A stretch of 36,144 nucleotides of DNA from a virus (taxonomy: Duplodnaviria > Heunggongvirae > Uroviricota > Caudoviricetes). Below are positions 1 to 36,144 of the stretch, piece after piece. Where the stretch lies: IMG/VR virus record IMGVR_UViG_2728369608_000005, one strand, 5' to 3'. The position numbers and the translations under genes were made by a program. Position 1 is the stretch's first letter; each line of letters opens with the position of its first letter. The notes under the pieces were generated by a model. That model did not search any database. It worked only from the letters and a program-made list of their open reading frames with translations, and was not told the DNA's origin.

Positions 1-502
1 ATGGCAAACCTACCTGAAACCCCGCAGTGGGAAGAAGGCATCTACCAGATTGAGGTCTCTGACCCCGTTCTGGGCGGGCCTGACGGAATTTCTAACCGTC
101 AGGGTAAACAACTGGCCAGCCGCACGCTGTACCTGAAGCAACAGGTTGAAAAAGGCGGTTCTGACCTTGCGAAACATATCGCGGCAGCAGACCCGCATAC
201 CCAGTACGCACCGAAAGCCAGCCCGACATTCACCGGCACACCAACAGCGCCTACGCCTGCAAATAGCGATAACAGCAAGAAGCTGGCGACGACGGAGTTT
301 GTGGCCAAAGCACTTGCGGCGCTTGCAGGCAGCGCCCCTGAGACGCTGGATACGCTCAAAGAGCTGGCTGATGCCCTCGGCAACGATCCGAATTTTGCGA
401 CCACTGTGTTGAACAAGCTGGCGGAGAAGCTGGCCAAAGACCAGAACGGCGCTGATATTCCTGACCCGGCGCTCTTTGTCAAAAACCTTGGTTTGGGAGA
501 AG
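1..502. repeat. Left copy of a perfect >=502-bp inverted repeat (fibre constant region); outer limit cut by window edge
   Basis: Reverse complement of 1..502 equals 2423..2924; first mismatch at 503/2422. Confidence 0.9.
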
Positions 503-942
503 CGGCAAAACGGAATGTGGGCAACGGGGAAAACCAAATCCCTGATATGTCTTTCTGGACGGTTACTGGTGGCAATGGAAATTTTGTGATTCGTCAACCT
601 GACGGGCTAATCATTCAGATGGTTACTGTAAGTATAAGCGGTCCAGTGGCGATGAATGGAATGACTGATAATGCTTATGCCATTACAGGTTCTAATAAGT
701 CTTATATTGCCACAGCCACATTGCCCTTTGTATTTCCTAATAAGGTGCTGGGCGTTATCCCTCTGGTATCAACAACAGCTTATGGTGGTGTATCCAGTAA
801 TATTACAGGTTCATACGCGACGGCGGTTTGTTCTTTTGCCGCTGTCATGGGGAATAATACGATTGTGTTCAAAGTCGACAAACCACTGAATGCAGCCTTT
901 CCTTCAGATACCAGCGTCTCAGCGTTAATCATTGGACGGTAA
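1..942 (+). CDS. Tail fibre protein, variant A (alternative receptor-binding C-terminus)
   Basis: First 167 aa identical to the fibre at 1962..2924, then a different C-terminus encoded by visibly AT-rich DNA. Confidence 0.75.
   Translation: MANLPETPQWEEGIYQIEVSDPVLGGPDGISNRQGKQLASRTLYLKQQVEKGGSDLAKHIAAADPHTQYAPKASPTFTGTPTAPTPANSDNSKKLATTEFVAKALAALAGSAPETLDTLKELADALGNDPNFATTVLNKLAEKLAKDQNGADIPDPALFVKNLGLGEAAKRNVGNGENQIPDMSFWTVTGGNGNFVIRQPDGLIIQMVTVSISGPVAMNGMTDNAYAITGSNKSYIATATLPFVFPNKVLGVIPLVSTTAYGGVSSNITGSYATAVCSFAAVMGNNTIVFKVDKPLNAAFPSDTSVSALIIGR
476..501. promoter_or_regulatory. Candidate hix/gix-like invertase crossover site (left)
   Basis: TTGTCAAAAACC-TT-GGTTTGGGAGAA: two 12-bp half-sites around a 2-bp core, at the inner edge of the repeat. 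Confidence 0.6.
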
Positions 943-944
943 GA

Positions 945-1388
945 ATGAACTCAGTATTCTTTTCACCCGGAAGTAAAAGTTTTTATCTGCAAGAATTGTT
1001 TCCAGAATATGAGGATGCGGGAACGCTTCCTGATGATGTTATTGAAATTACCAGAGAAACATATGAGCAATTTCTTGGGCTGCATCCAGAAGGGAAAGAA
1101 ATTGGCGCTGACAGTTCAGGACGGCCAATATGGATTAATTCCCCGCCGCCTTCAAAAGAGGATGAGATGCTGGCGGCTGAAATGAAAAAGATATCTTTGG
1201 TTTCAGAAGTCAATACCTACATCAATACCAATCAGTGGCCTGGCAAAGCTGCTATTGGTCGTCTGAAAGGTTACGAGCTGGAACAATATAATTTATGGCT
1301 GGATTATCTGGACGCACTGGAACTGGTTGATACCTCCAGTGCTCCAGATATTGAATGGCCTACGCCTCCGGTAGTTCAGGCCAGATGA
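945..1388 (+). CDS. Tail fibre assembly chaperone (Tfa), cognate to variant A
   Basis: C-terminal Tfa signature LWLDYLDALELVDTSSAPDIEWPTPP; directly follows fibre A. Confidence 0.75.
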   Translation: MNSVFFSPGSKSFYLQELFPEYEDAGTLPDDVIEITRETYEQFLGLHPEGKEIGADSSGRPIWINSPPPSKEDEMLAAEMKKISLVSEVNTYINTNQWPGKAAIGRLKGYELEQYNLWLDYLDALELVDTSSAPDIEWPTPPVVQAR

Positions 1389-1965
1389 CATCCGGCGCGG
1401 TGCTGGTATCTGTTGCAGTCACCGCGTCAATGTAATCCAGCACAGCGTTAAGCCGGGTTGTTTCTGCCTGCGTCAGCTTCCGCCCGGCCTGCAATTTCAG
1501 CTGAATCAGACTAATGGAAGCCATAGCAGCATCAATCAGTGACTGGCGCCGTACTTCTGCCGCGTCTACTGCGGCGTTATGCTGTGCCTCAGTATCGGTC
1601 ACCCATTTCTCACCATCCCATTTATCGTATGACGTTAACGGGGCGATAGTGGTTGTATTTTCAGGGTAATCACCCGGAACTGTGATTTCTTTTGATTCTC
1701 CTGTTTCGGTGCTATAGACGATTTCACCGCGATGGTCTGGCACATATTCCCATGAGTTAAAATCTGCAGAACGGCAAATTGCATAACCAGCTTTATATGA
1801 GCCAGGAGCATCTAAACAGGAACATGCCGGGATACCGACACCCACAGCAAGATATTCAGTTGATGTGGAAATATATTCCCGTGTTTCACCATCATAATTA
1901 TAAACGGTAATGTCTCCGGCCTTTGTGGCGATGAGTTCATTATTTAATACAGCTTTACTTATCAT
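1360..1965 (-). CDS. Tail fibre assembly chaperone (Tfa), cognate to variant B
   Basis: C-terminal Tfa signature LDYIDAVTATDTSTAPDVIWPELP; overlaps the start of fibre B by 4 bp. Confidence 0.8.
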   Translation of the reverse strand: MISKAVLNNELIATKAGDITVYNYDGETREYISTSTEYLAVGVGIPACSCLDAPGSYKAGYAICRSADFNSWEYVPDHRGEIVYSTETGESKEITVPGDYPENTTTIAPLTSYDKWDGEKWVTDTEAQHNAAVDAAEVRRQSLIDAAMASISLIQLKLQAGRKLTQAETTRLNAVLDYIDAVTATDTSTAPDVIWPELPEA

Positions 1966-2924
1966 GCAGCCCTCACAATATAATTAAAGGCGATGTTACG
2001 GGAGCGGGTTTCAGATGCTGTGCGAACTGAGCGAGATGCGTCGAATGTCCAGTTATAAGCGCCATAACCCTCAATAATTTCGGCTTCCTTTAGACCTGTA
2101 GATAATACTTCTTGCCCATGTTGACTAAATGGCCCTGAACTAAGTACGCCTTTAAAAAGCTGGGTACGCCCAAAAGAACCAACAATATTCTGAATTGCAT
2201 CATTCTGTGCAGATAATAAGTTACGACCAGAGTCAATCCCGCGCCCATCATCCCAGCCACGAATAAATTCACCGCGTAAATCAGGCAATTTATTTGTCGG
2301 ATAAGCCTTTGCCAGTTCCGGGTATTCTTCAGCAGAAAAAGCCGCACCGTTGCATTTCAGCCAGCCTGTTGGCGGTGTGGCTGAAGGCCATGGAACAGGC
2401 ACACCAACAGGTAATGCAGAGCCTTCTCCCAAACCAAGGTTTTTGACAAAGAGCGCCGGGTCAGGAATATCAGCGCCGTTCTGGTCTTTGGCCAGCTTCT
2501 CCGCCAGCTTGTTCAACACAGTGGTCGCAAAATTCGGATCGTTGCCGAGGGCATCAGCCAGCTCTTTGAGCGTATCCAGCGTCTCAGGGGCGCTGCCTGC
2601 AAGCGCCGCAAGTGCTTTGGCCACAAACTCCGTCGTCGCCAGCTTCTTGCTGTTATCGCTATTTGCAGGCGTAGGCGCTGTTGGTGTGCCGGTGAATGTC
2701 GGGCTGGCTTTCGGTGCGTACTGGGTATGCGGGTCTGCTGCCGCGATATGTTTCGCAAGGTCAGAACCGCCTTTTTCAACCTGTTGCTTCAGGTACAGCG
2801 TGCGGCTGGCCAGTTGTTTACCCTGACGGTTAGAAATTCCGTCAGGCCCGCCCAGAACGGGGTCAGAGACCTCAATCTGGTAGATGCCTTCTTCCCACTG
2901 CGGGGTTTCAGGTAGGTTTGCCAT
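1962..2924 (-). CDS. Tail fibre protein, variant B (tail-collar-type C-terminus), currently joined to the late operon
   Basis: Lies directly downstream of the gpI-like gene; C-terminus has Mu S / P2 H-like collar motifs (WLKCNGAAFSAEEYPELAKAYP, LPDLRGEFIRGWDDGRG). Confidence 0.85.
   Translation of the reverse strand: MANLPETPQWEEGIYQIEVSDPVLGGPDGISNRQGKQLASRTLYLKQQVEKGGSDLAKHIAAADPHTQYAPKASPTFTGTPTAPTPANSDNSKKLATTEFVAKALAALAGSAPETLDTLKELADALGNDPNFATTVLNKLAEKLAKDQNGADIPDPALFVKNLGLGEGSALPVGVPVPWPSATPPTGWLKCNGAAFSAEEYPELAKAYPTNKLPDLRGEFIRGWDDGRGIDSGRNLLSAQNDAIQNIVGSFGRTQLFKGVLSSGPFSQHGQEVLSTGLKEAEIIEGYGAYNWTFDASRSVRTASETRSRNIAFNYIVRAA
2423..2924. repeat. Right copy of the inverted repeat
   Basis: Same comparison as the left copy; the N-terminal 167 aa of both fibres are identical. 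Confidence 0.9.
2424..2449. promoter_or_regulatory. Candidate hix/gix-like invertase crossover site (right)
   Basis: TTCTCCCAAACC-AA-GGTTTTTGACAA; closely resembles Salmonella hixL as I recall it (TTCTTGAAAACCAAGGTTTTTGATAA). Confidence 0.6.
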
Positions 2925-21999: not shown

Positions 22000-22324
22000 T
22001 ACGACCTCCTGTATGGCGGTACTGCTGTACCAGTTCCAGTTTGTTGTAGAGCGCGTCCAGCTTGGCTTCGATGACCGTCTGGCCCCGGATATAATCCTCT
22101 CGGCGGACGTAGTTCAGCGGTAAATCCGCCTTAAACCGCATAAATTCTTTTTCCAGCTCGCCCCAGTTTGAGGCGGACTGCTGCAGCGACTGCTCAAGGG
22201 AGGCGAACCGCGCCGCCTGACGCTCTTCCGCTTTACTGAACAGCCATTTGGCTATGCCACCGACAAAGCTCATGAAGGTGATGAGGAAACCCACCACCGT
22301 CCAGAATTCAACCTGCAACGTCAT
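21992..22324 (-). CDS. Small membrane protein of the lysis cassette
   Basis: ATG at 22324 overlaps the upstream stop (ATGA); single N-terminal hydrophobic helix VVGFLITFMSFVGGIA. Confidence 0.5.
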   Translation of the reverse strand: MTLQVEFWTVVGFLITFMSFVGGIAKWLFSKAEERQAARFASLEQSLQQSASNWGELEKEFMRFKADLPLNYVRREDYIRGQTVIEAKLDALYNKLELVQQYRHTGGRNG

Positions 22325-22974
22325 TTCTGTAATCCTTCCCGTTCGTCCAGCAGACTGTTTATCTGGCTGCGCCAGCTGCGGCACTGCTTCGCGTTGTCGA
22401 TGATGTTGGCGAGGACGTCACGCTGAGAGATGCCTGAGTCGCGTAGCCAGGCGTCAGCGGTTTCAGGTCGCCCGGACGCTGCGCCAGTGCCGGTGCCAGC
22501 GGCGGCAGTTGCGTCTGAATGACCGGTGTCGACGGATGCGTTGTCATATCCGAGCGCGGCGTTGTACTGGCGCACGAAACCGCGAGTAAACACGCACTCA
22601 ATGGGATGGCTCTTACCTTTTTCATCAATCCAGCGCTGTGTGACATCGTTAATTTGCCCCTGTAGTTGTTTGTTCTGGCTCTCCAGTTGAGCAATCTGCT
22701 CAAGGTAACTGGCTTCAGCCTGCTGCCCGGCGGCTACCTGCTCCTGATACCGTTTTGCCCATGCTCGCAACGCAGCGTTCTCAAGCGTTGCCTGCTCCGT
22801 TTTGTATGTGTCGAATGCTGACTGCAACTCACTGATCGCCTTATCGCCGTCGCGCGTGGCGTTTTCATGCCCGCTTTTGTAGCCCAGGTAATAAAGTCCA
22901 ATCAGAAAAGCATTTATGAGCACTGCCAGCAGCAGACTGCGCCACGGCAGATTTTTTAGCAGGTTAGTCCACAC
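22321..22974 (-). CDS. i-spanin (Rz-like)
   Basis: 217 aa, N-terminal transmembrane helix then Q/A/E-rich coiled-coil region; downstream of endolysin. Confidence 0.6.
   Translation of the reverse strand: MWTNLLKNLPWRSLLLAVLINAFLIGLYYLGYKSGHENATRDGDKAISELQSAFDTYKTEQATLENAALRAWAKRYQEQVAAGQQAEASYLEQIAQLESQNKQLQGQINDVTQRWIDEKGKSHPIECVFTRGFVRQYNAALGYDNASVDTGHSDATAAAGTGTGAASGRPETADAWLRDSGISQRDVLANIIDNAKQCRSWRSQINSLLDEREGLQK
22359..22625 (-). CDS. Candidate embedded o-spanin (Rz1-like lipoprotein)
   Basis: ORF in a different frame inside the i-spanin gene: MKKVRAIPLSACLLAVSC lipobox-like signal followed by a Pro/Thr/Ser-rich tail. Confidence 0.4.
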   Translation of the reverse strand: MKKVRAIPLSACLLAVSCASTTPRSDMTTHPSTPVIQTQLPPLAPALAQRPGDLKPLTPGYATQASLSVTSSPTSSTTRSSAAAGAAR

Positions 22975-24170: not shown

Positions 24171-24494
24171 ATGACTGAACCGAAACAGACCGGTCTTAAA
24201 AAAGGGTTCCTCTTTGGGATCAGAACCGGAGAGCAGAATAAAACTTACACGCTAAGCGTGGATGCCAGTTGCCCAACCGAGGCGATTGCAGAACTGAGAA
24301 ACGCGCTGACGGCGCTTGAAACGCGAAGCAGCCATTTCGCCAGCGGAGAAAACAACGTCATGATGATTGGCAATGTGGCGGCGACATCACGATATAAAGC
24401 CGTACCTAATCCTACTACTCAGTTATCCGGCGACCAACGAAGACTGGAAGCGGAATCAGCAGTTCCCAGAACGGTTCTTCCTCACCAGTCTTAA
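24171..24494 (+). CDS. Hypothetical small protein (108 aa)
   Basis: ATG preceded by GGGGAGG at 8-nt spacing; divergent from the holin; last 80 bp overlap the 188-aa gene. Confidence 0.3.
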   Translation: MTEPKQTGLKKGFLFGIRTGEQNKTYTLSVDASCPTEAIAELRNALTALETRSSHFASGENNVMMIGNVAATSRYKAVPNPTTQLSGDQRRLEAESAVPRTVLPHQS

Positions 24495-24981
24495 CCGGGG
24501 CCGCTTCTCCCGCCCAGTAAAGCCAGGCCCGGTGATATAATTCCAGCACCGGGCAATCACTGTTCAATAACCTCATATCTCCGCGATGCACCGGCTCATC
24601 TGTGATTACTTCATATATCGGTGCCGTTCTGATTTCGTCTTCGCCTCTCTCATCGGCCAGTAATGCCCGGAACTTCCTGACTTCACTCAGATGCTGACAG
24701 GCAAACAGTGACTGATAGCGGGAAGGTTTGTCAGGAAAATGGCTACGGCGAACTAACTCAAACACCAGACCGACCAGCAGACTTCTGCTGACTCCACTGT
24801 CATCTTCCATTTTAGGGCCGGGGTTATAGAGATAGTTATGACCGTGCTTGGAAAGACCATCGGGATACATCTGATGAAGGAAAGCGGCCAGCTCCGGCGC
24901 TTCAGGTTCGTATTTTCCGGTAATTACATGGCAAGGCGAAGGCAGACGATTAGCGGAATCAAGTGTGTAATACGTTCCCAT
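24415..24981 (-). CDS. Hypothetical protein (188 aa), unknown function
   Basis: ATG-initiated ORF immediately upstream of the lysis/late arm; no family recognised. Confidence 0.55.
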   Translation of the reverse strand: MGTYYTLDSANRLPSPCHVITGKYEPEAPELAAFLHQMYPDGLSKHGHNYLYNPGPKMEDDSGVSRSLLVGLVFELVRRSHFPDKPSRYQSLFACQHLSEVRKFRALLADERGEDEIRTAPIYEVITDEPVHRGDMRLLNSDCPVLELYHRAWLYWAGEAAPVKTGEEEPFWELLIPLPVFVGRRITE

Positions 24982-25224
24982 TCAGAAAACAATCCTTATC
25001 GAACAAACACTGCACGTAGGTAACACATCCAGTAAATCGCGTTAATAGAAAACAGTTATCCATAAGCCTCATCCTGACAATGAAAGAACGACCAGCCCGG
25101 TGCGGTAACACCAGGCTGGTCATCAACCCACAGGTATGCACTGTGAGCCGACCAGGGTTCAGTCAGTCTCGCGAGACCAGACTAGCCTGCCATATTTTCA
25201 CTGATTGCAAAAGGCTTACGGATA

Positions 25225-25995
25225 ATGAAAGAACAATCTTTACCCATCGTTCCATGGATTGGCGGCAAACGTCGTCTGGCTAAGCATATTCTGCCGCTGT
25301 TCCCGGCCCATACCTGCTATGTGGAGCCGTTCTGTGGGGCCGCTGCGCTCTATTTTCTTAAGACACCCAGCAAGACCGAAGTCATTAACGATATCAACGG
25401 GGAACTGGTGAACCTCTATCGGGTGGTCAAGCATCATCTGGAAGAATTTGTTCGCCAGTTCAAATGGGCGCTGGTCAGCCGTCAGATTTACAAATGGTTG
25501 CAGGATACGCCGGAAGAAACTCTCACCGACATTCAGCGGGCGGCCCGGTTCTACTACCTGCAGAAACAGGCGTTTGGCGGCAAGGTGGCCGATCACTCGT
25601 TCGGAACCTCCACCACAAGTGCGCCGCGCTTTAACCTCCTGCGCATCGAAGAAGAACTGTCGATGGCACACCTGCGCCTGTCGAGAACGCTGATAGAGCA
25701 TCTGGACTGGCACCAGTGCATAGAGCGATATGATCGCCCGCATACGCTGTTCTACTGTGACCCACCATACTGGGGAACAGAGGGCTATGGTGTGGAGTTC
25801 GGGCTGGAAAACTATGATCACATGGCAGATTTAGCGCGAAGGATCAAAGGGAAGATGATTATATCAGTGAACGATATCCCGGAAATGCGGCAGGTATTCA
25901 ACGGTCTGAACATGCAGTCGGTTGATATCAGCTACAACCTTAAGGTAACAGGTAAACCCAGCCCGAAGAAAGAGCTGGTAATTTGTAATTTTTGA
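25225..25995 (+). CDS. DNA adenine methyltransferase, Dam family, no adjacent restriction gene
   Basis: N-terminal PWIGGKRRL and FCGAAALYF motifs and catalytic DPPY (FYCDPPYWGT). Confidence 0.85.
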   Translation: MKEQSLPIVPWIGGKRRLAKHILPLFPAHTCYVEPFCGAAALYFLKTPSKTEVINDINGELVNLYRVVKHHLEEFVRQFKWALVSRQIYKWLQDTPEETLTDIQRAARFYYLQKQAFGGKVADHSFGTSTTSAPRFNLLRIEEELSMAHLRLSRTLIEHLDWHQCIERYDRPHTLFYCDPPYWGTEGYGVEFGLENYDHMADLARRIKGKMIISVNDIPEMRQVFNGLNMQSVDISYNLKVTGKPSPKKELVICNF

Positions 25996-26008
25996 AAGAG
26001 GTAGTTAA

Positions 26009-26036
26009 AGGTGGTGGTGCATCTGCAGCACCACCT
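26009..26036. terminator. Hairpin between convergent Dam and lipoprotein genes (possible bidirectional terminator)
   Basis: AGGTGGTGGTGCA / TGCAGCACCACCT, 13-bp stem with one mismatch; weak T-tracts on both sides. Confidence 0.4.
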
Positions 26037-26042
26037 AAACAT

Positions 26043-26576
26043 TTAATCCTGCCTTGGACAAGTCCAATAATCATTATCTGGCTCTGGTGAATAAGCTTTC
26101 AAACAACCTGCTCGCGGGGTCTTACCATCATCTGTCATAGGAACTTTTTCCTTATCAAGTTTCACGGTCAGGTCTCCACCAGGAACATCCGTTTTATCGA
26201 AAAAAACAGCCTGACATGCTGATTTAGATATTTTCACTTCGTGGGCATTATTTGATATGAACAAATAACAATTATGACCAGAGGCTATGTAGTCACTTGG
26301 AATATTATTTTCGTCTTTAATATGAAACTGCACCGTTGTCACCGGGCGTTCGCTATCCTCGGATACTTCGACTTTTTCAAAACTGTCCGCGTACTTATCC
26401 AGGCCGGGGAGTTGTTGGCGAATAAACGGTAATTCGCGATTTACAACCGGATTATCTGTTTCAACGCTAAAAACCGCGTGCTCCTTAGCTGTGGTGGACG
26501 TATCAGCAGGATCGGTATTATCTCCACACCCAGATAAAACAAATATCAACGGTAAAAATAATTTGCGCATAGTCAT
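26043..26576 (-). CDS. Lipoprotein moron (candidate lysogenic-conversion / superinfection-exclusion protein)
   Basis: Signal peptide with lipobox LSGC; gene visibly AT-rich versus surrounding phage DNA; 35 bp downstream of the repressor on the same strand. Second ATG at 26570 has better Shine-Dalgarno spacing. Confidence 0.75.
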   Translation of the reverse strand: MTMRKLFLPLIFVLSGCGDNTDPADTSTTAKEHAVFSVETDNPVVNRELPFIRQQLPGLDKYADSFEKVEVSEDSERPVTTVQFHIKDENNIPSDYIASGHNCYLFISNNAHEVKISKSACQAVFFDKTDVPGGDLTVKLDKEKVPMTDDGKTPRAGCLKAYSPEPDNDYWTCPRQD

Positions 26577-26611
26577 GTCCTTATACCTCTAATGTTCTTA
26601 ATAGGAACAGA

Positions 26612-27022
26612 TTAACCCGTATTTTTTAATCTTTCGAACGCTGCGGACAGCTCCTTAAGCTGTTTTTCCATATCAATCATTCGCTGTTTTTCCTCAGCGC
26701 CTCGCAGCAACTCTTTTCGCACCTCTGGCTCCAGTTGGTTGAGCAGCTCCAATAACTTCAGATCAGACTGGTTGAAATGCTGCTCCTGATTAGCTGGCTG
26801 TGCTTTCTCTACCCCAACAGCTTCCCCTTTACCAGTAAGTAGCCAATCTATTGATATGTTCAAATGGGTGCTTAGCGCAACAAGAGCCTCTGCATTAGGT
26901 TCTCTCTCTCCACGCAGATAGTTTTGAAGTGAGCGATATGGAATTTTTGACAAGTCTGACAATGCCTTAATTGTCAGACCCTTAGCATCCATCGCTTCGC
27001 GCAATCTCTCTTTTATACTCAT
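26612..27022 (-). CDS. Phage repressor, XRE-family HTH
   Basis: Internal ATG at 27022 (MSIKERLREAMDAKGLTIKALSDLSKIPYRSLQNYLRGER, 136 aa); divergent from the early operon. Confidence 0.75.
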   Translation of the reverse strand: MSIKERLREAMDAKGLTIKALSDLSKIPYRSLQNYLRGEREPNAEALVALSTHLNISIDWLLTGKGEAVGVEKAQPANQEQHFNQSDLKLLELLNQLEPEVRKELLRGAEEKQRMIDMEKQLKELSAAFERLKNTG

Positions 27023-27038
27023 TTGAACATATCTCAAT

Positions 27039-27066
27039 TTGACATACCCGTTTGGGTGCGTACAAT
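27039..27066 (+). promoter_or_regulatory. Candidate early promoter (sigma-70 type) for the ner-A-B operon
   Basis: TTGACA (27039..27044), 16-bp spacer, TACAAT (27061..27066); AGGAA Shine-Dalgarno 10 nt before the ATG at 27111. Confidence 0.5.
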
Positions 27067-27110
27067 AGACCCAATAGAGTACATCATAACCCAACAGGAA
27101 CACGGTGCAT

Positions 27111-27335
27111 ATGAACAAACAACAAGTTCGGGCACGGCTGGTTGAAAGAGGCAGTAGCTTGCGCCAGTTCGCGCTTAACGCGGGCTATGAGCCACGAACA
27201 GTCACCCAGGCTGTCAGCCGCTGGGCAGGCAAAAGCGAACTTCCACGCGGTCGTTTGACTTATCGGATTTTGCGAGACCTTTCGGTCGCAATAGGCAAAG
27301 AAGTTACCCCCGGCATCCTCAAGGAGGCGTCATGA
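27111..27335 (+). CDS. ner: Ner-like DNA-binding protein
   Basis: 74 aa; LRQFALNAGYEPRTVTQAV pattern resembles Mu Ner; first gene of the early operon. Confidence 0.65.
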   Translation: MNKQQVRARLVERGSSLRQFALNAGYEPRTVTQAVSRWAGKSELPRGRLTYRILRDLSVAIGKEVTPGILKEAS

Positions 27336-27637
27336 GTAAACCAAATACATCAAGCTCAGGTACCCGTATTTTGCGTGTCCTTAAGGCTTTACGCGGTCAC
27401 GCTCTGAACGGTGTTTCTAACGGCGAGCTGGCGTCAGCTCTGGGCGAGTCCCCGGCGAATATCAATCGGGCGCTCAATACCCTTATCGAAGAAGGACTGG
27501 CCCTGAAACTGGATAACGGGCGTTTTGCCCCAGGAGTCCAGCTCTTACAAATCGCCATGGCGCACAGTACCGAAATGGCGCGGGCGCAGGATCGTATCAA
27601 TGAAATTAACCAGCGTGTTATGGCTGGTAGTCGCTAA
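27332..27637 (+). CDS. Winged-HTH DNA-binding protein (IclR-N-like, no effector domain)
   Basis: 101 aa; RILRVLKAL...GVSNGELASALGESPANINRALNTLIEEGLA; ATGA overlap with ner. Confidence 0.55.
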   Translation: MSKPNTSSSGTRILRVLKALRGHALNGVSNGELASALGESPANINRALNTLIEEGLALKLDNGRFAPGVQLLQIAMAHSTEMARAQDRINEINQRVMAGSR

Positions 27638-27646
27638 GGAGTTGAA

Positions 27647-28555
27647 ATGGGACGCACAAAATCACAACCAGTTGAACTAGTGGAAGATGCACCGCTGACC
27701 GATGGTCTCAGTGTCAGTCTTAATGCTATGTCCGAACATCGCCTCGAAATCATGCAGCAGTTTGGTGATGGCCTGCCGTATGAACGTGATCGTATTGTCC
27801 ATGAAACACGTTTTTATATGGCTCAGAGTGCTGAAGCCATGCTGGAGGCGGGTAAACGACTGGTAATTCTCAAAGAAAATGAACCACATGGTGACTTCAT
27901 CGACATCGTTGAGTCTCAGTTGTCCCTATCCAAACGTACCGCGCAGGTGATGATGCAAGCATCCCTCAAATATTTGTCTCCCAAGCTTGAACCAAAAGCG
28001 CAAGCGCTTGCGCTTTTGGGTAAAACAAAGCTGTTTGAGTTGATGACGGAAGATGACGAAGACCTCGTCGAATTAGCCGATGGCGGCACGATTGCTGGTA
28101 TGAGCCTCGATGATATTGATCGCATGACAAGCCGCGAACTGAAAGCGGCCCTACGCGAAGCGCGTGAAACCAACGCAGCACAACAGCGCGTGCTTGCCGA
28201 CAAAAACGAAAAAATCGACTCGCTTTCCACAAAACTGGAGAAGAAATCCCGTATCCAGCCGCCCAAGCCTGACGAAGAGGTGAAGAAGCTGCGTGCGGAA
28301 GTTACAGCGTTAGCGGTTGAGGCGGAATCTGCCATCGCCGTTCGACTGTCCAGCGCCTTTGAGACCCTGTGCGCATACTGTGCTGAAAATATGATTGATA
28401 CCCCCAGAGACTTTATGGCCGGTCTGGTCTGCCAGTTGGAAAGCACCGCGCGTAGCCTGCGCTCCACATTTGACCTGCCGGACGAGCCGACAGGCAACGC
28501 CGCCCCTTCATGGCTGACTGACCCGACGCCAGAGATTAACGGGCAGGAGGCATAA
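27647..28555 (+). CDS. Conserved Mu-like early protein upstream of transposase (possibly DUF3102-like)
   Basis: 302 aa with a charged coiled-coil centre; family name recalled, not verified. Confidence 0.5.
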   Translation: MGRTKSQPVELVEDAPLTDGLSVSLNAMSEHRLEIMQQFGDGLPYERDRIVHETRFYMAQSAEAMLEAGKRLVILKENEPHGDFIDIVESQLSLSKRTAQVMMQASLKYLSPKLEPKAQALALLGKTKLFELMTEDDEDLVELADGGTIAGMSLDDIDRMTSRELKAALREARETNAAQQRVLADKNEKIDSLSTKLEKKSRIQPPKPDEEVKKLRAEVTALAVEAESAIAVRLSSAFETLCAYCAENMIDTPRDFMAGLVCQLESTARSLRSTFDLPDEPTGNAAPSWLTDPTPEINGQEA

Positions 28556-34894: not shown

Positions 34895-35224
34895 ATGGCC
34901 AGACCAAGCAATATTGATAAACTGCCAGAGGATGTTCGTGCCGAGCTTCATAGCGAATTATCGCGCACAAACTTCACCGGTTATGAATGGCTCTCGCTCT
35001 GGTTAGCCGATAAAGGTTACAGCGTATCGAAGTCAGCCATTCAGCGTTATGCTGTCGCGAATAAAAATGAAATTCTGGGCCTACAGCAAGAGAGTCGATT
35101 CCATCAGGCACAGCTTCGACTTAATGCGCTTGGTGTAGCGGCAACAATTTCACCAGGAAAAGACCTTGGAAGTTTGAAGAATGATGCAGATGCACTACTA
35201 AAATGGGCGTTGTTTGGTTACTGA
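34895..35224 (+). CDS. gp27-N-terminal-like paralog (DNA-binding?), last gene before the prophage end
   Basis: ATG at 34895 after AGGAGG; N-terminus IDKLPEDVRAELHSEL...SKSAIQRY parallels the gp27-like protein at 21143..21691. Confidence 0.55.
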   Translation: MARPSNIDKLPEDVRAELHSELSRTNFTGYEWLSLWLADKGYSVSKSAIQRYAVANKNEILGLQQESRFHQAQLRLNALGVAATISPGKDLGSLKNDADALLKWALFGY

Positions 35225-35230
35225 ATGAGT

Positions 35231-35256
35231 GGGGGGCATCGTCCCCCTTAATTTTC
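35231..35256 (+). terminator. Rho-independent terminator at the end of the early operon
   Basis: GGGGGG-catcgt-CCCCC hairpin followed by TTAATTTT, directly after the stop at 35224. Confidence 0.5.
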
Positions 35257-35320
35257 ATATACTGTAAATGAATTACATAACCTTTTGTTTGTCTCTTCCC
35301 ATCACGTACCATAAAGTCCC

Positions 35321-35356
35321 ATTTATCTTACGGTACCCCCTATATTTATCTCACGT
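35321..35356. repeat. Terminal direct repeats, candidate transposase-binding sites
   Basis: ATTTATCTTACGG (35321..35333) and ATTTATCTCACGT (35344..35356); element ends ...TCTAATCA at 35363. Confidence 0.5.
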
Positions 35357-35363
35357 CTAATCA

Positions 35364-36144
35364 GGCGGCGAAAGTGGGCGGCATTGTTGCCAACAACACC
35401 TATCCGGCAGATTTCATCTACCAGAACATGATGATTGAGAGCAACATCATTCACGCCGCGCATCAGAACGACGTGAACAAACTGCTGTTTCTCGGATCGT
35501 CCTGTATCTACCCGAAACTGGCAAAACAGCCGATGGCAGAAAGCGAGTTATTGCAGGGTACGCTGGAGCCGACTAACGAGCCTTATGCTATTGCCAAAAT
35601 CGCCGGGATCAAACTGTGCGAATCTTACAACCGCCAGTATGGACGCGATTATCGCTCGGTCATGCCGACCAACCTGTATGGCCCGCATGACAACTTCCAC
35701 CCGAGTAATTCGCATGTGATCCCTGCATTGCTGCGTCGCTTCCACGAGGCGACGGCACAGAATGCACCGGACGTGGTGGTGTGGGGCAGCGGTACACCGA
35801 TGCGCGAATTTCTGCACGTCGATGATATGGCGGCGGCGAGCATTCATGTGATGGAGCTGGCGCACGAAGTCTGGCTGGAGAACACCCAACCGATGCTGTC
35901 GCACATTAACGTCGGCACGGGCGTTGACTGCACTATCCGCGAGCTGGCGCAAACCATCGCCAAAGTGGTGGGTTACAAAGGTCGGGTGGTTTTTGATGCC
36001 AGTAAACCGGATGGTACACCGCGCAAACTGCTGGATGTGACACGCCTGCATCAGCTTGGCTGGTATCACGAAATCTCACTGGAAGCGGGGCTCGCCAGCA
36101 CTTACCAGTGGTTCCTTGAGAATCAAGACCGCTTTCGGGGGTAA
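35364..36144 (+). pseudogene. fcl: GDP-L-fucose synthase gene, 5'-truncated by the prophage insertion
   Basis: Reading frame from 35365 encodes [26 protein letters not shown]... to the C-terminus ...[11 protein letters not shown]; the N-terminal ~62 codons are absent from the window. Confidence 0.85.

What the first reader, a model, noticed from the sequence alone, without database searches (positions are those of the whole stretch)
26043..26576. AT-rich lipoprotein moron co-oriented with the repressor
A lipoprotein gene with visibly lower GC than the phage backbone lies 35 bp downstream of the repressor on the same strand, bounded on the far side by a hairpin. This is the layout of lysogen-expressed conversion genes; phage lipoproteins in this position often block a receptor or transporter, but this mature protein (~155 aa) matches no family I recognise.
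Basis: partly seen in the sequence, partly recalled or inferred. Interest (0 to 1): 0.6.

Follow-up and report, generated by a model that had tools for sequence, protein, structure and literature searches.

The report
Repressor-linked periplasmic lipoprotein of Mu-like prophage
A real, AT-rich lipoprotein gene sits just after the repressor of a BcepMu-like transposable prophage; it belongs to an undescribed, apparently new-fold protein family that occupies this slot in many such phages and most likely protects the lysogen against other phages, which is untested.

Summary
Window 26043-26576 (-) encodes a 177-aa protein with a canonical lipobox (LSGC, Cys17). It starts 35 bp after the repressor stop on the same strand and is followed by a stable hairpin. 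Its GC is 41.8% against 55.5% for the window. The gene is under purifying selection (dN/dS 0.11-0.21).

The element is a BcepMu-like transposable prophage, identical here to 'Klebsiella phage KP12'.

The protein has no Pfam, NCBIfam, PADLOC or PDB match. A confident AlphaFold model has no structural neighbour. It is not an orphan: 184 cluster representatives share its core domain. In all 40 loci from one viral-contig scan, and in the few other phage contexts examined, the gene lies in the lysogeny module between the repressor and the lysis cassette.

Relatives are anchored by lipid, by inner-membrane helices, or fused to a gp18-like inner-membrane protein. One lineage fuses the domain to Ltp superinfection-exclusion repeats.

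Best reading (confidence about 0.4): a lysogen-expressed periplasmic factor that blocks genome delivery by incoming phages, following Ltp logic rather than outer-membrane receptor masking. 'Moron' is only partly apt. The gene is dispensable and absent from most related E. coli prophages, but it recurs in this slot across distant phages. Function is untested.

The parts
26043..26576 (-). Lipoprotein gene, 177 aa (175 aa if started at the second ATG, 26570). Signal peptide residues 1-16; lipidated Cys17 (codon 26526-26528); disordered tether residues 18-31; folded domain residues 32-177 with Cys103/Cys121 and Cys158/Cys173.
   Evidence: ORF listing. Lipobox with G16, C17, C103 and C121 invariant. 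AlphaFold2 pLDDT above 90 for residues 32-177 and below 50 for residues 1-31. dN/dS 0.11-0.21. PGAP start.
26577..26611 (-). 35-nt spacer between repressor stop and lipoprotein start. Carries two Shine-Dalgarno-like motifs: AGAGG at 26586-26590 for the first ATG and AAGGA at 26578-26582 for the second ATG. No terminator-like fold.
   Evidence: Sequence. The fold is no better than shuffles, z +0.65. Spacing of 35-42 nt is conserved in relatives.
26593..26609 (.). Perfect palindrome TGTTC-N7-GAACA immediately after the repressor stop. It marks the 3' boundary of this repressor type.
   Evidence: The core TGTTCYYATTAAGAAC is invariant in 7 divergent loci. It is present once in every locus with this repressor type, including L021, which has no lipoprotein gene. 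A single occurrence in the window is not above chance on its own.
26612..27022 (-). Prophage repressor, 136 aa: N-terminal HTH_3/CI-type domain plus a C-terminal coiled-coil-like tail, with no S24 peptidase domain. Presumed first gene of the repressor-lipoprotein transcription unit.
   Evidence: Pfam HTH_3 E 3e-12 and Phage_CI_repr E 2e-6. PHROG repressor families. Divergent from the early operon.
26004..26040 (-). GC-rich hairpin 3 nt after the lipoprotein stop. Probable bidirectional terminator between the lipoprotein gene and convergent dam.
   Evidence: -22 kcal/mol, z -2.95. It travels only with lipoprotein alleles at least 97% identical. The ST131 relative has a different hairpin at the dam 3' end. 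It did not pass the strict T-tract terminator scan.
27039..27066 (+). Sigma-70-like early promoter (TTGACA-16-TACAAT) facing the ner-like, transposase and early operon. It marks the divergent lysogeny control region (context only).
   Evidence: 11 of 12 consensus matches. Gene order ner-like, IclR-HTH, DUF3102, DDE transposase, ExeA/MuB-like.
25225..25995 (+). Dam-type N6-adenine methyltransferase, convergent with the lipoprotein gene. A second cargo gene of the repressor-to-holin accessory slot (context only).
   Evidence: Pfam MethyltransfD12 E 1.5e-27. PADLOC MTase_II. Absent from several relatives.

Best explanation
The ORF is a genuine gene of a BcepMu-like transposable prophage. It is transcribed with the repressor in the lysogen (inferred). 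The product is exported, lipidated at Cys17, and held on a 14-residue flexible tether at a periplasmic membrane face. The canonical +2 rule predicts the outer-membrane inner leaflet, but relatives sit on the inner membrane. It displays a compact disulfide-bonded alpha/beta domain of an undescribed family.

The most likely job of that domain is superinfection exclusion after adsorption. It would bind a periplasmic component of an incoming phage's delivery machinery (tape measure, ejection proteins or tail lysin) or the host site that machinery uses. Genome entry is blocked while the repressor handles homo-immune phages. This is the logic of Ltp of Streptococcus phage TP-J34, not the FhuA-plugging logic of Llp and Cor.

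Shown: gene reality, lipobox, position, conservation of position, domain family and its fusions. Inferred: co-transcription, localisation, the exclusion function and its target.
For: 1. Real gene. Lipobox invariant; dN/dS 0.11-0.21; confident model, pLDDT above 90 for residues 32-177.
2. Lysogeny-module position. It starts 35 nt after the repressor, with no terminator between them and no promoter hit just upstream of the gene. A hairpin follows it. It lies upstream of the Mor-dependent late/lysis operon, which has its own Rz/Rz1 pair, so it is not the spanin.
3. The position is conserved. It holds in Morganella (43% identity), a 26%-identity relative, 40 of 40 viral contigs and high-GC Mu-like phages.
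4. The family is always exported and membrane-tethered, by lipobox, by N-terminal TM helices, or by fusion to an inner-membrane protein.
5. Link to a known exclusion module. P0049 and P0190 have the architecture TM + this domain + two Pfam Lipoprotein_Ltp repeats (E 5.5e-28). They sit in a Prim-Pol island next to an HTH_3 gene. Four representatives use the Zn-ribbon + TM scaffold that many Gram-negative Ltp proteins use.
6. Ltp is a prophage-expressed lysogeny-module lipoprotein with lipid anchor, spacer and active domain, and it blocks DNA injection through the tape measure protein (PMC3952083).
7. The slot is an accessory hotspot with alternative cargo and with alleles exchanged independently of the backbone. 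Lipoprotein identity is 43% where transposase is 94% and repressor 88%.
Against: - There is no experimental datum for any family member, and no name in any source.
- The Ltp link rests on one fusion lineage of two clusters. A fusion shows shared compartment and context, not shared activity.
- There is no gene-wide positive selection of the kind expected in an arms race.
- In many relatives the domain is coupled or fused to a gp18-like protein with a cytoplasmic domain. That suits a signalling or regulatory role as well as exclusion.
- The window protein has Gly at +2, so it may sit on the outer membrane, unlike its TM-anchored relatives.
- Co-transcription with the repressor is inferred from spacing only.
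Confidence: 0.4

Rival explanations
1. Outer-membrane receptor or transporter masking. The lipoprotein is sorted to the outer membrane and inactivates a porin or TonB-dependent receptor from the periplasmic side, as T5 Llp and phi80/N15 Cor do with FhuA. This prevents adsorption or the infection trigger, and possibly colicin uptake.
For: Gly at +2 (CGDN) predicts Lol-dependent outer-membrane sorting under the canonical +2 rule (sequence; 32 of 68 lipobox-bearing relatives have Gly at +2). It sits in the lysogeny module and is a dispensable accessory gene.
Against: There is no sequence or fold similarity to Llp, Cor, Bor or TraT. The mature protein is 161 aa, against about 60-80 aa for Llp and Cor (from memory). 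Many relatives are anchored in the inner membrane by TM helices, by Asp at +2, or by fusion to an inner-membrane protein, and could not reach an outer-membrane receptor.
Confidence: 0.15
2. Periplasmic input or accessory part of a lysogeny switch. The domain senses an envelope or periplasmic cue. In relatives it passes the signal through a gp18-like inner-membrane protein to the repressor, controlling induction or abortive death. The window's copy would be a partner-less version that buffers or reports the same cue.
For: Rosetta-stone evidence. PHROG 10002 is a gp18-like cytoplasmic domain + TM + this domain. The separate 193-aa protein of L014 matches profile positions 39-161 (E 1e-24) and the focal protein matches positions 215-321 (E 5e-14). 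In many loci the gp18-like gene lies between the repressor and the lipoprotein. Repressor C-tails and gp18-like N-termini share a co-varying ~20-aa motif.
Against: The window has no gp18-like gene (best tblastn E 0.2), and its repressor lacks the tail motif. The focal protein must therefore work without that pathway. gp18-like proteins also occur without the domain, as in BcepMu gp18 and L017.
Confidence: 0.12
3. Lysogenic-conversion factor for host fitness rather than phage defence, for example serum or complement resistance, adhesion or envelope robustness, as with lambda Bor.
For: It is a lysogen-oriented AT-rich lipoprotein in prophages of Enterobacterales from animals, food, clinics and plants.
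Against: There is no similarity to Bor or TraT. The family is tied to phage lysogeny modules across very different hosts, including plant pathogens, Morganella and high-GC proteobacteria, rather than to one niche. The Ltp-repeat fusion points to phage-phage conflict.
Confidence: 0.12
4. Periplasmic enzyme inhibitor. The domain neutralises a peptidoglycan hydrolase, such as the tail-associated or SLT-type lysin of incoming phages (T4 Spackle logic) or the prophage's own transglycosylase. This would be a specific sub-mechanism of exclusion or self-protection.
Confidence: 0.1
5. Late or lysis accessory function, or a decaying passenger with no function.
For: The gene lies upstream of the lysis cassette on the same strand.
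Against: It is separated from the holin by a hairpin, an opposite-strand dam gene, a second strong hairpin and a 375-bp intergenic region. A complete holin, SLT, Rz and Rz1 set exists without it. Purifying selection and wide conservation argue against decay.
Confidence: 0.05

Closest known systems
Ltp superinfection-exclusion lipoprotein of Streptococcus thermophilus phage TP-J34 (Pfam PF07553)
   Same: It is a prophage-expressed gene in the lysogeny module. It has the same tripartite build of lipid anchor, flexible spacer and folded active domain facing away from the cytoplasm (PMC3952083). The focal domain is found fused to two Ltp repeats, and it sits on the same Zn-ribbon + TM scaffold that Gram-negative Ltp proteins use.
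   Different: There are no Ltp repeats in the focal protein (Pfam negative) and the predicted fold is different. The host is Gram-negative, and the membrane of residence is unknown. Activity and target (the tape measure protein for Ltp) are untested here.
Llp (phage T5) and Cor (phi80, N15, HK022) FhuA-blocking outer-membrane lipoproteins
   Same: These are phage-encoded lipoproteins that protect the infected or lysogenic cell from superinfection. Sorting to the outer membrane is predicted by the +2 residue.
   Different: There is no sequence or fold similarity. The focal protein is about twice the size, and it sits next to the repressor rather than near receptor-binding or tail genes (the latter from memory). 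Relatives are inner-membrane anchored.
PHROG 10002 / PHROG 5825 (unknown function) and BcepMu gp18 'membrane protein'
   Same: The focal core domain is homologous to the C-terminal periplasmic part of PHROG 10002 (E 5e-14). BcepMu gp18 and PHROG 5825 proteins occupy the same post-repressor slot.
   Different: The focal protein lacks the cytoplasmic domain and TM helix and uses a lipid anchor instead. BcepMu gp18 has a different small periplasmic domain. None of these proteins has a known function.
Morons of lambdoid phages (for example lambda bor and lom, HK97 gp15)
   Same: It has deviant base composition, presence/absence among otherwise collinear genomes, a downstream terminator-like hairpin and a lysogen-oriented position.
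   Different: No private promoter was detected, so it appears appended to the repressor transcript. The family recurs in this slot across deep divergence of BcepMu-like phages instead of being a sporadic insertion.

Membership tests
Bacterial lipoprotein (Lgt/LspA/Lnt substrate) | Signal peptide with a basic n-region, a hydrophobic h-region and a lipobox [LVI][ASTVI][GAS]C | tested here: met
   MTMRK-LFLPLIFV-LSGC. G16 and C17 are invariant in 21 homologs. 68 of the family proteins scanned carry a lipobox.
Bacterial lipoprotein (Lgt/LspA/Lnt substrate) | Actual acylation and globomycin-sensitive processing; membrane of residence | not testable with these tools
   The +2 residue is Gly and the +3 residue is Asp. 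The canonical rule predicts the outer membrane. Relatives with Asp at +2 (7 of 68) or with TM anchors are in the inner membrane.
Ltp-type superinfection-exclusion lipoproteins (PF07553) | One or two Ltp repeat domains | tested here: not met
   No Pfam hit at E up to 0.1. Ltp repeats occur only in the fused relatives P0049 and P0190.
Ltp-type superinfection-exclusion lipoproteins (PF07553) | Gene in the lysogeny module, expressed from the prophage; lipid anchor + spacer + active domain | tested here: inconclusive
   Position and build match (PMC3952083). Expression was not measured.
Ltp-type superinfection-exclusion lipoproteins (PF07553) | Blocks DNA injection by binding the tape measure protein | not testable with these tools
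   Needs phage challenge, injection assays and escape mutants.
Llp/Cor receptor-masking lipoproteins | Sequence or fold homology to Llp or Cor | tested here: not met
Llp/Cor receptor-masking lipoproteins | FhuA-dependent exclusion at the outer membrane | not testable with these tools
   The architecture of relatives (TM anchors, inner-membrane fusions) argues against a family-wide outer-membrane target.
Moron (Hendrix-type accessory gene) | Present in some and absent from other closely related phage genomes | tested here: met
   Found in 20 E. coli genomes, against 639 with the backbone transposase. Absent in L005-L010, L021 and the ST131 prophage.
Moron (Hendrix-type accessory gene) | Base composition different from the neighbours | tested here: met
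   GC 41.8% and GC3 35.4%, against 55.5% for the window.
Moron (Hendrix-type accessory gene) | Own promoter and terminator | tested here: inconclusive
   A hairpin is present. No consensus promoter lies upstream, so expression probably depends on the repressor promoter.
o-spanin (Rz1-type lysis lipoprotein) | Short proline-rich lipoprotein encoded within or next to the i-spanin gene in the lysis cassette | tested here: not met
   A separate Rz1-like ORF (MKKVRAIPLSACLLAVSC..., proline-rich) is embedded in the Rz-like gene 22321-22974. The focal protein is a 146-residue folded domain outside the cassette.
PHROG 10002 (unknown function) | C-terminal periplasmic core domain (PGLDKY ... IPxxY ... 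GHxC ... KxxC) | tested here: met
   E 5.2e-14, residues 27-134 against profile positions 215-321. 184 representatives at E up to 1e-3.
PHROG 10002 (unknown function) | N-terminal gp18-like cytoplasmic domain + TM helix | tested here: not met
   The focal protein starts with a lipoprotein signal peptide. No gp18-like gene is present in the window.

The most novel reading that the evidence does not exclude
The focal domain is the periplasmic input module of an undescribed transmembrane lysogeny or abortive switch of BcepMu-like phages. In relatives it is coupled or fused to a gp18-like inner-membrane protein. The N-terminus of that protein carries the same co-varying G/N/Q-rich ~20-aa motif as the repressor's C-terminal tail. 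This is the gene-pair signature of amyloid-type signalling, as in Bab/Agp of E. coli. A periplasmic event such as superinfection or envelope damage could then be relayed directly to the repressor. The window's lipoprotein would be a stand-alone derivative that binds the same periplasmic ligand.
Probability: 0.1. Interest if true: 0.85.

Novelty: new variant of a known kind. Interest (0 to 1): 0.5.

Why it matters
If the exclusion function is real, this defines a new family of phage-encoded exclusion proteins for Gram-negative hosts. It would have no Pfam model and apparently no known fold.

The family has 184 representatives at the 50%-identity cluster level. It lives in the lysogeny module of BcepMu-like transposable prophages. 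The backbone of these prophages is in about 12% of complete E. coli genomes, and they occur in Salmonella, Klebsiella, Morganella, Pectobacterium, Dickeya, Brenneria and others.

Such proteins shape phage host range. That matters for phage therapy against Enterobacterales and for reading prophage 'dark matter'.

The gene is small and self-contained, so it can be tested directly by expressing it alone and challenging with a phage panel. The family context also exposes a possibly more important lead: a repressor-to-membrane-protein motif pairing in relatives, including the type phage BcepMu.

Tried and rejected
- **Sequence family searches.** Pfam, NCBIfam, PADLOC and PDB sequences gave nothing for the focal protein.
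- **Profile search of the 5.8-billion protein set with a diverse core alignment.** It added no named protein.
- **Scans of viral contigs for more contexts.** Single-protein scans with P0053, P0071 and P0093 found nothing. The broad alignment A2 was too diverse for pattern scanning.
- **Literature.** No paper mentions the protein accessions. Nothing on this gene appears under BcepMu, Mu-like, lipoprotein or KP12 searches.
- **Spanin hypothesis.** Rejected, because Rz1 is found elsewhere.
- **Private promoter.** None was found. The only minus-strand hit lies inside the gene's 3' end and is at chance level.
- **Arms-race positive selection.** Not seen gene-wide.
- **Pfam scans of 20 longer family members for more informative fusions.** Only one Zn-ribbon was found.

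Full report
**What is there.** The window is a prophage. From 25000 to 28000 it is 100% identical to GenBank OM835952, 'Klebsiella phage KP12 clone KP12_2', and 98.8% identical to Escherichia phage Phi06_2974 B.

The gene content and order are as follows:
- On the minus strand: tail, head, terminase, then Rz, SLT lysin and holin.
- Then an accessory stretch.
- Then the repressor, also on the minus strand.
- On the plus strand, diverging from the repressor: a ner-like gene, an IclR-type HTH gene, DUF3102, a DDE transposase, an ExeA/MuB-like ATPase, further early genes, and Mor.

This is the two-arm layout described for BcepMu-like transposable myophages. In those phages the lysogeny control region sits at the strand switch and is followed by the lysis cassette (PMC2771037).

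The right end of the window (35374-36144) is a host epimerase gene. In E. coli the same prophage sits at different chromosomal sites, for example next to napH in CFSAN051542. That is what transposition would give.

**Checking the observation.** ORF 26043-26576 on the minus strand encodes 177 aa beginning MTMRKLFLPLIFVLSGC. This is a textbook lipoprotein signal peptide. Gly16 and Cys17 are invariant in 21 homologs.

The repressor (26612-27022; HTH_3 E 3e-12) ends exactly 35 bp upstream on the same strand. The spacer has Shine-Dalgarno-like motifs for both in-frame ATGs, and it folds no better than shuffled sequence (z +0.65). The consensus scan found no promoter just upstream of the gene.

Three nucleotides after the stop lies a GC-rich hairpin (-22 kcal/mol, z -2.95). 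It faces the convergent dam gene.

The gene has 41.8% GC and 35.4% GC3, against 55.5% for the window. Only 0.7% of windows of equal length are as low.

Pairwise dN/dS among 16 distinct alleles is 0.11-0.21. That is similar to the repressor and higher than dam, holin or the IclR-type gene at 0.03-0.08. So this is a functional gene, not a chance ORF. The mature protein is 161 aa, and PGAP prefers the second ATG.

**What the protein is.** Pfam, NCBIfam, PADLOC and PDB sequence searches give nothing. The only library hit is PHROG 10002, of unknown function, where residues 27-134 match profile positions 215-321 of 328 (E 5e-14).

AlphaFold2 with the family alignment gives a confident model. pLDDT is above 90 for residues 32-177 and below 50 for residues 1-31. 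The model has an N-terminal helix, a beta sheet, a second helix and a C-terminal beta region.

Three fold searches found no credible neighbour:
- Foldseek against the PDB: best E 0.41, TM below 0.3.
- Foldseek against viral structures (BFVD): best E 0.06.

The fold is therefore unclassified with the libraries available; AFDB could not be searched.

Cys103 and Cys121 are invariant. Cys158 and Cys173 lie in a Pro-rich C-terminal tail that some homologs lack. This fits a disulfide-bonded periplasmic protein.

**The family.** Close homologs number 37, all in Enterobacterales and all annotated 'hypothetical'. An exhaustive profile search finds 184 representatives at the 50%-identity cluster level with E up to 1e-3, and 72 with E up to 1e-10. 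They share the core of about residues 43-135, with the motifs PGLDKY, IPxxY, GHxC, KxxC and CLD.

The architectures are as follows:
- About 140-aa lipoproteins.
- Proteins with N-terminal TM anchors.
- Zn-ribbon + TM + core (4 cases).
- 312-372-aa forms with a helical insert before the Cys tail.
- About 320-aa proteins with a cytoplasmic domain + TM + core.

Among lipobox-bearing members the +2 residue is Gly in 32, Ser in 15 and Asp in 7. The domain is thus always exported and membrane-tethered, and often sits on the inner membrane.

**Genomic context across relatives.** A transposase-based scan of one genome per species returned 60 BcepMu-like loci. In the enterobacterial ones the backbone is highly conserved, with transposase, holin and SLT often at 95-100%. 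The stretch between the repressor and the holin is a mosaic:
- The same lipoprotein at 97% in Pantoea stewartii and Apirhabdus.
- 70% in Pseudocitrobacter.
- 43% in Morganella, where the repressor is 88% and the transposase 94%.
- Long 312-318-aa homologs in Brenneria, Dickeya, Pectobacterium and Mixta.
- Elsewhere other cargo: an NA37-family protein with a large membrane protein, a 297-aa protein, other lipoproteins, or a small secreted protein (Pfam check).
- Or nothing, as in L021.

A pattern scan of viral contigs gave 40 loci. In all 40 the family member lies after the repressor, or after repressor plus one membrane-protein gene, and before the lysis genes.

The same holds for a relative of 26% identity in a different Mu-like phage. 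It also holds for high-GC Mu-like phages found with a CPGLDKYA pattern. One member sits elsewhere, beyond GemA on the opposite strand.

In complete E. coli genomes the backbone transposase is present in 639 of 5426, the window-type repressor in 39, and this lipoprotein allele in 20. The common ST131 prophage has the repressor directly convergent with dam.

So the gene is dispensable and exchangeable, yet it recurs in this slot. 'Moron' describes its composition and dispensability. It does not describe its evolutionary persistence in the lysogeny module.

**Clues to mechanism.**
1. *Fusion to a known exclusion module.* P0049 and its 76%-identical relative P0190 have the architecture TM + core domain + two Pfam Lipoprotein_Ltp repeats (E 5.5e-28). 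They are encoded in a Prim-Pol/VapE-type island beside an HTH_3 gene. Ltp is the prototype lysogeny-module lipoprotein. It has a lipid anchor, a spacer and an active repeat domain, and it blocks DNA injection by binding the tape measure protein (PMC3952083). Many Gram-negative Ltp proteins use a Zn-ribbon + TM scaffold, and four members of the focal family use the same scaffold.
2. *Fusion to a gp18-like protein.* PHROG 10002 is a fusion. The separate 193-aa inner-membrane protein that lies between repressor and lipoprotein in Dickeya (L014) matches its positions 39-161 (E 1e-24). The lipoprotein matches positions 215-321. L083 carries both a fusion protein and a separate lipoprotein paralog.
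3. *Lysis is already complete without it.* The lysis cassette has its own embedded Rz1, so the focal protein is not the spanin.

Taken together, the domain works in the periplasm close to a membrane, in a lysogeny and phage-conflict context. Family-wide, it does not appear to work on an outer-membrane receptor.

**Best explanation and rivals.** I commit, at about 0.4, to post-adsorption superinfection exclusion. A repressor-co-transcribed, lipid-tethered periplasmic binder interferes with genome delivery by incoming phages.

The rivals are:
- A sensor or regulatory role linked to gp18-like proteins (0.12).
- A host-fitness conversion factor (0.12).
- A periplasmic hydrolase inhibitor (0.10).
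- A late function or a decaying passenger (0.05).

Several points weigh against the best explanation. There are no experimental data. Only one fusion lineage links the domain to Ltp. There is no gene-wide positive selection. Sorting is uncertain because the +2 residue is Gly. Co-transcription is inferred, not shown.

**Seen in passing, and possibly more interesting than the finding.** In relatives that carry the gp18-like gene, the last ~25 residues of the repressor and the first ~25 residues of the gp18-like protein carry the same G/N/Q-rich motif, and the motif co-varies.
- Type A: repressor tails such as QVFNGDITGQVAGNQIINNG pair with MHQEFNGTASGQFSARDIINIH.
- Type B: repressor tails such as VSGNNNRVAGRDYKGK pair with MEFNINGDSNRVAGRDYHEHQ.
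- Own-pair alignment scores exceed composition shuffles by z 4-15, and cross-type scores are at background.
- The type phage BcepMu shows it too, in gp17 and gp18.

A shared terminal motif in the products of adjacent genes is how amyloid signalling pairs are recognised. One such pair, Bab/Agp, acts in E. coli antiphage defence (bioRxiv 10.1101/2024.11.07.622273).

The window's repressor lacks this tail and the window has no gp18-like gene. This bears on the family, not directly on the focal gene.

**Verdict.** The feature is a new, uncharacterised and structurally unclassified variant of a known kind, the lysogeny-module exclusion-type lipoprotein. It is easy to test. Interest is 0.5.

Noticed in passing
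Related loci, not the window: L014 4408-5436, L013 4175-5298, L016 4452-5218, L094 4216-4973, L101 3979-4992, L119 2635-3645, L128 282-1265; BcepMu L130 4227-5422 (gp17/gp18): The repressor's C-terminal tail and the N-terminus of the next gene's inner-membrane protein (gp18-like, PHROG 5825) share a ~20-aa G/N/Q-rich motif. The motif co-varies between two types. Own-pair scores are z 4-15 above shuffles and cross-type scores are at background. This is the adjacent-gene signature of amyloid-type signalling motifs. The window's repressor lacks it.
   Followed up: partly
Related loci: L083/L084 3870-4844 and 5004-5531; proteins P0055, P0093, P0112; L014 3459-4989: Rosetta-stone relation. PHROG 10002 proteins fuse a gp18-like cytoplasmic domain and a TM helix to the focal periplasmic domain. 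Other phages encode the two parts as adjacent genes. L083 has both a fusion protein and a separate lipoprotein paralog in tandem.
   Followed up: partly
window 26593-26609: The palindrome TGTTC-N7-GAACA lies directly after the repressor stop. Its core is invariant in every locus with this repressor type, even where the flanking coding sequence diverges and where no lipoprotein gene follows (L021). It could be a cassette boundary, a protein-binding site or an RNA element.
   Followed up: partly
window 25087-25124 (minus strand): A very strong terminator-like hairpin (17 pairs, 9 of them GC, T-rich tail) lies in the 243-bp gap between the divergent dam and DUF2441 genes. Its role is unknown; it may insulate the late arm from read-through.
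   Followed up: no
window 24415-24981 (minus strand) and 25225-25995 (plus strand): There are two further cargo genes in the repressor-to-holin slot. One is a DUF2441 protein (PHROG 5663, unknown function). The other is a Dam-type methyltransferase whose DNA is 78% identical over 314 bp to the methylase of Vibrio phage VP882. Both are present or absent independently among relatives.
   Followed up: partly
Related loci L007 2768-4983, L015 1664-3855, L035 1667-3858, L085 5552-7839, L092 6071-8262: An alternative cargo of the same slot recurs. It is a 335-360-aa NA37 (YejK-like nucleoid-associated) protein followed by a ~400-aa protein with C-terminal TM helices. This may be an uncharacterised two-gene defence module.
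   Followed up: partly
window 1-2924: Two tail-fibre C-terminal segments and two tail-fibre-assembly genes (Caudo_TAP) lie in opposite orientations (945-1388 plus strand, 1360-1965 minus strand). This resembles Mu's invertible G segment. BcepMu itself is reported to lack a tail-fibre inversion system (PMC2771037). No invertase lies inside the window.
   Followed up: no
GenBank OM835952 (L001): The record is titled 'Klebsiella phage KP12 clone KP12_2, partial sequence' and is classified under Vequintavirinae. Its content is a BcepMu-like transposable prophage (DDE transposase, Mor, Mu-type portal). It is probably host-prophage DNA co-assembled with a lytic phage and mis-assigned taxonomically.
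   Followed up: no
window residues 150-177 of the focal protein (26043-26128); L013 3332-4165: The C-terminal Pro-rich linker plus Cys-loop (PPR.GCL..Y.P.....W.CP) behaves as a separate mini-module. Some homologs lack it. In the long forms a ~130-aa helical insert separates it from the core. It also occurs in a 277-aa membrane protein of L013 that has no core domain.
   Followed up: no
window 35225-36144: The prophage's right end lies between the Gp27-like gene (ending at 35224) and a host NAD-dependent epimerase gene fragment (35374-36144). The same prophage sits next to napH in E. coli CFSAN051542, consistent with transpositional insertion.
   Followed up: partly
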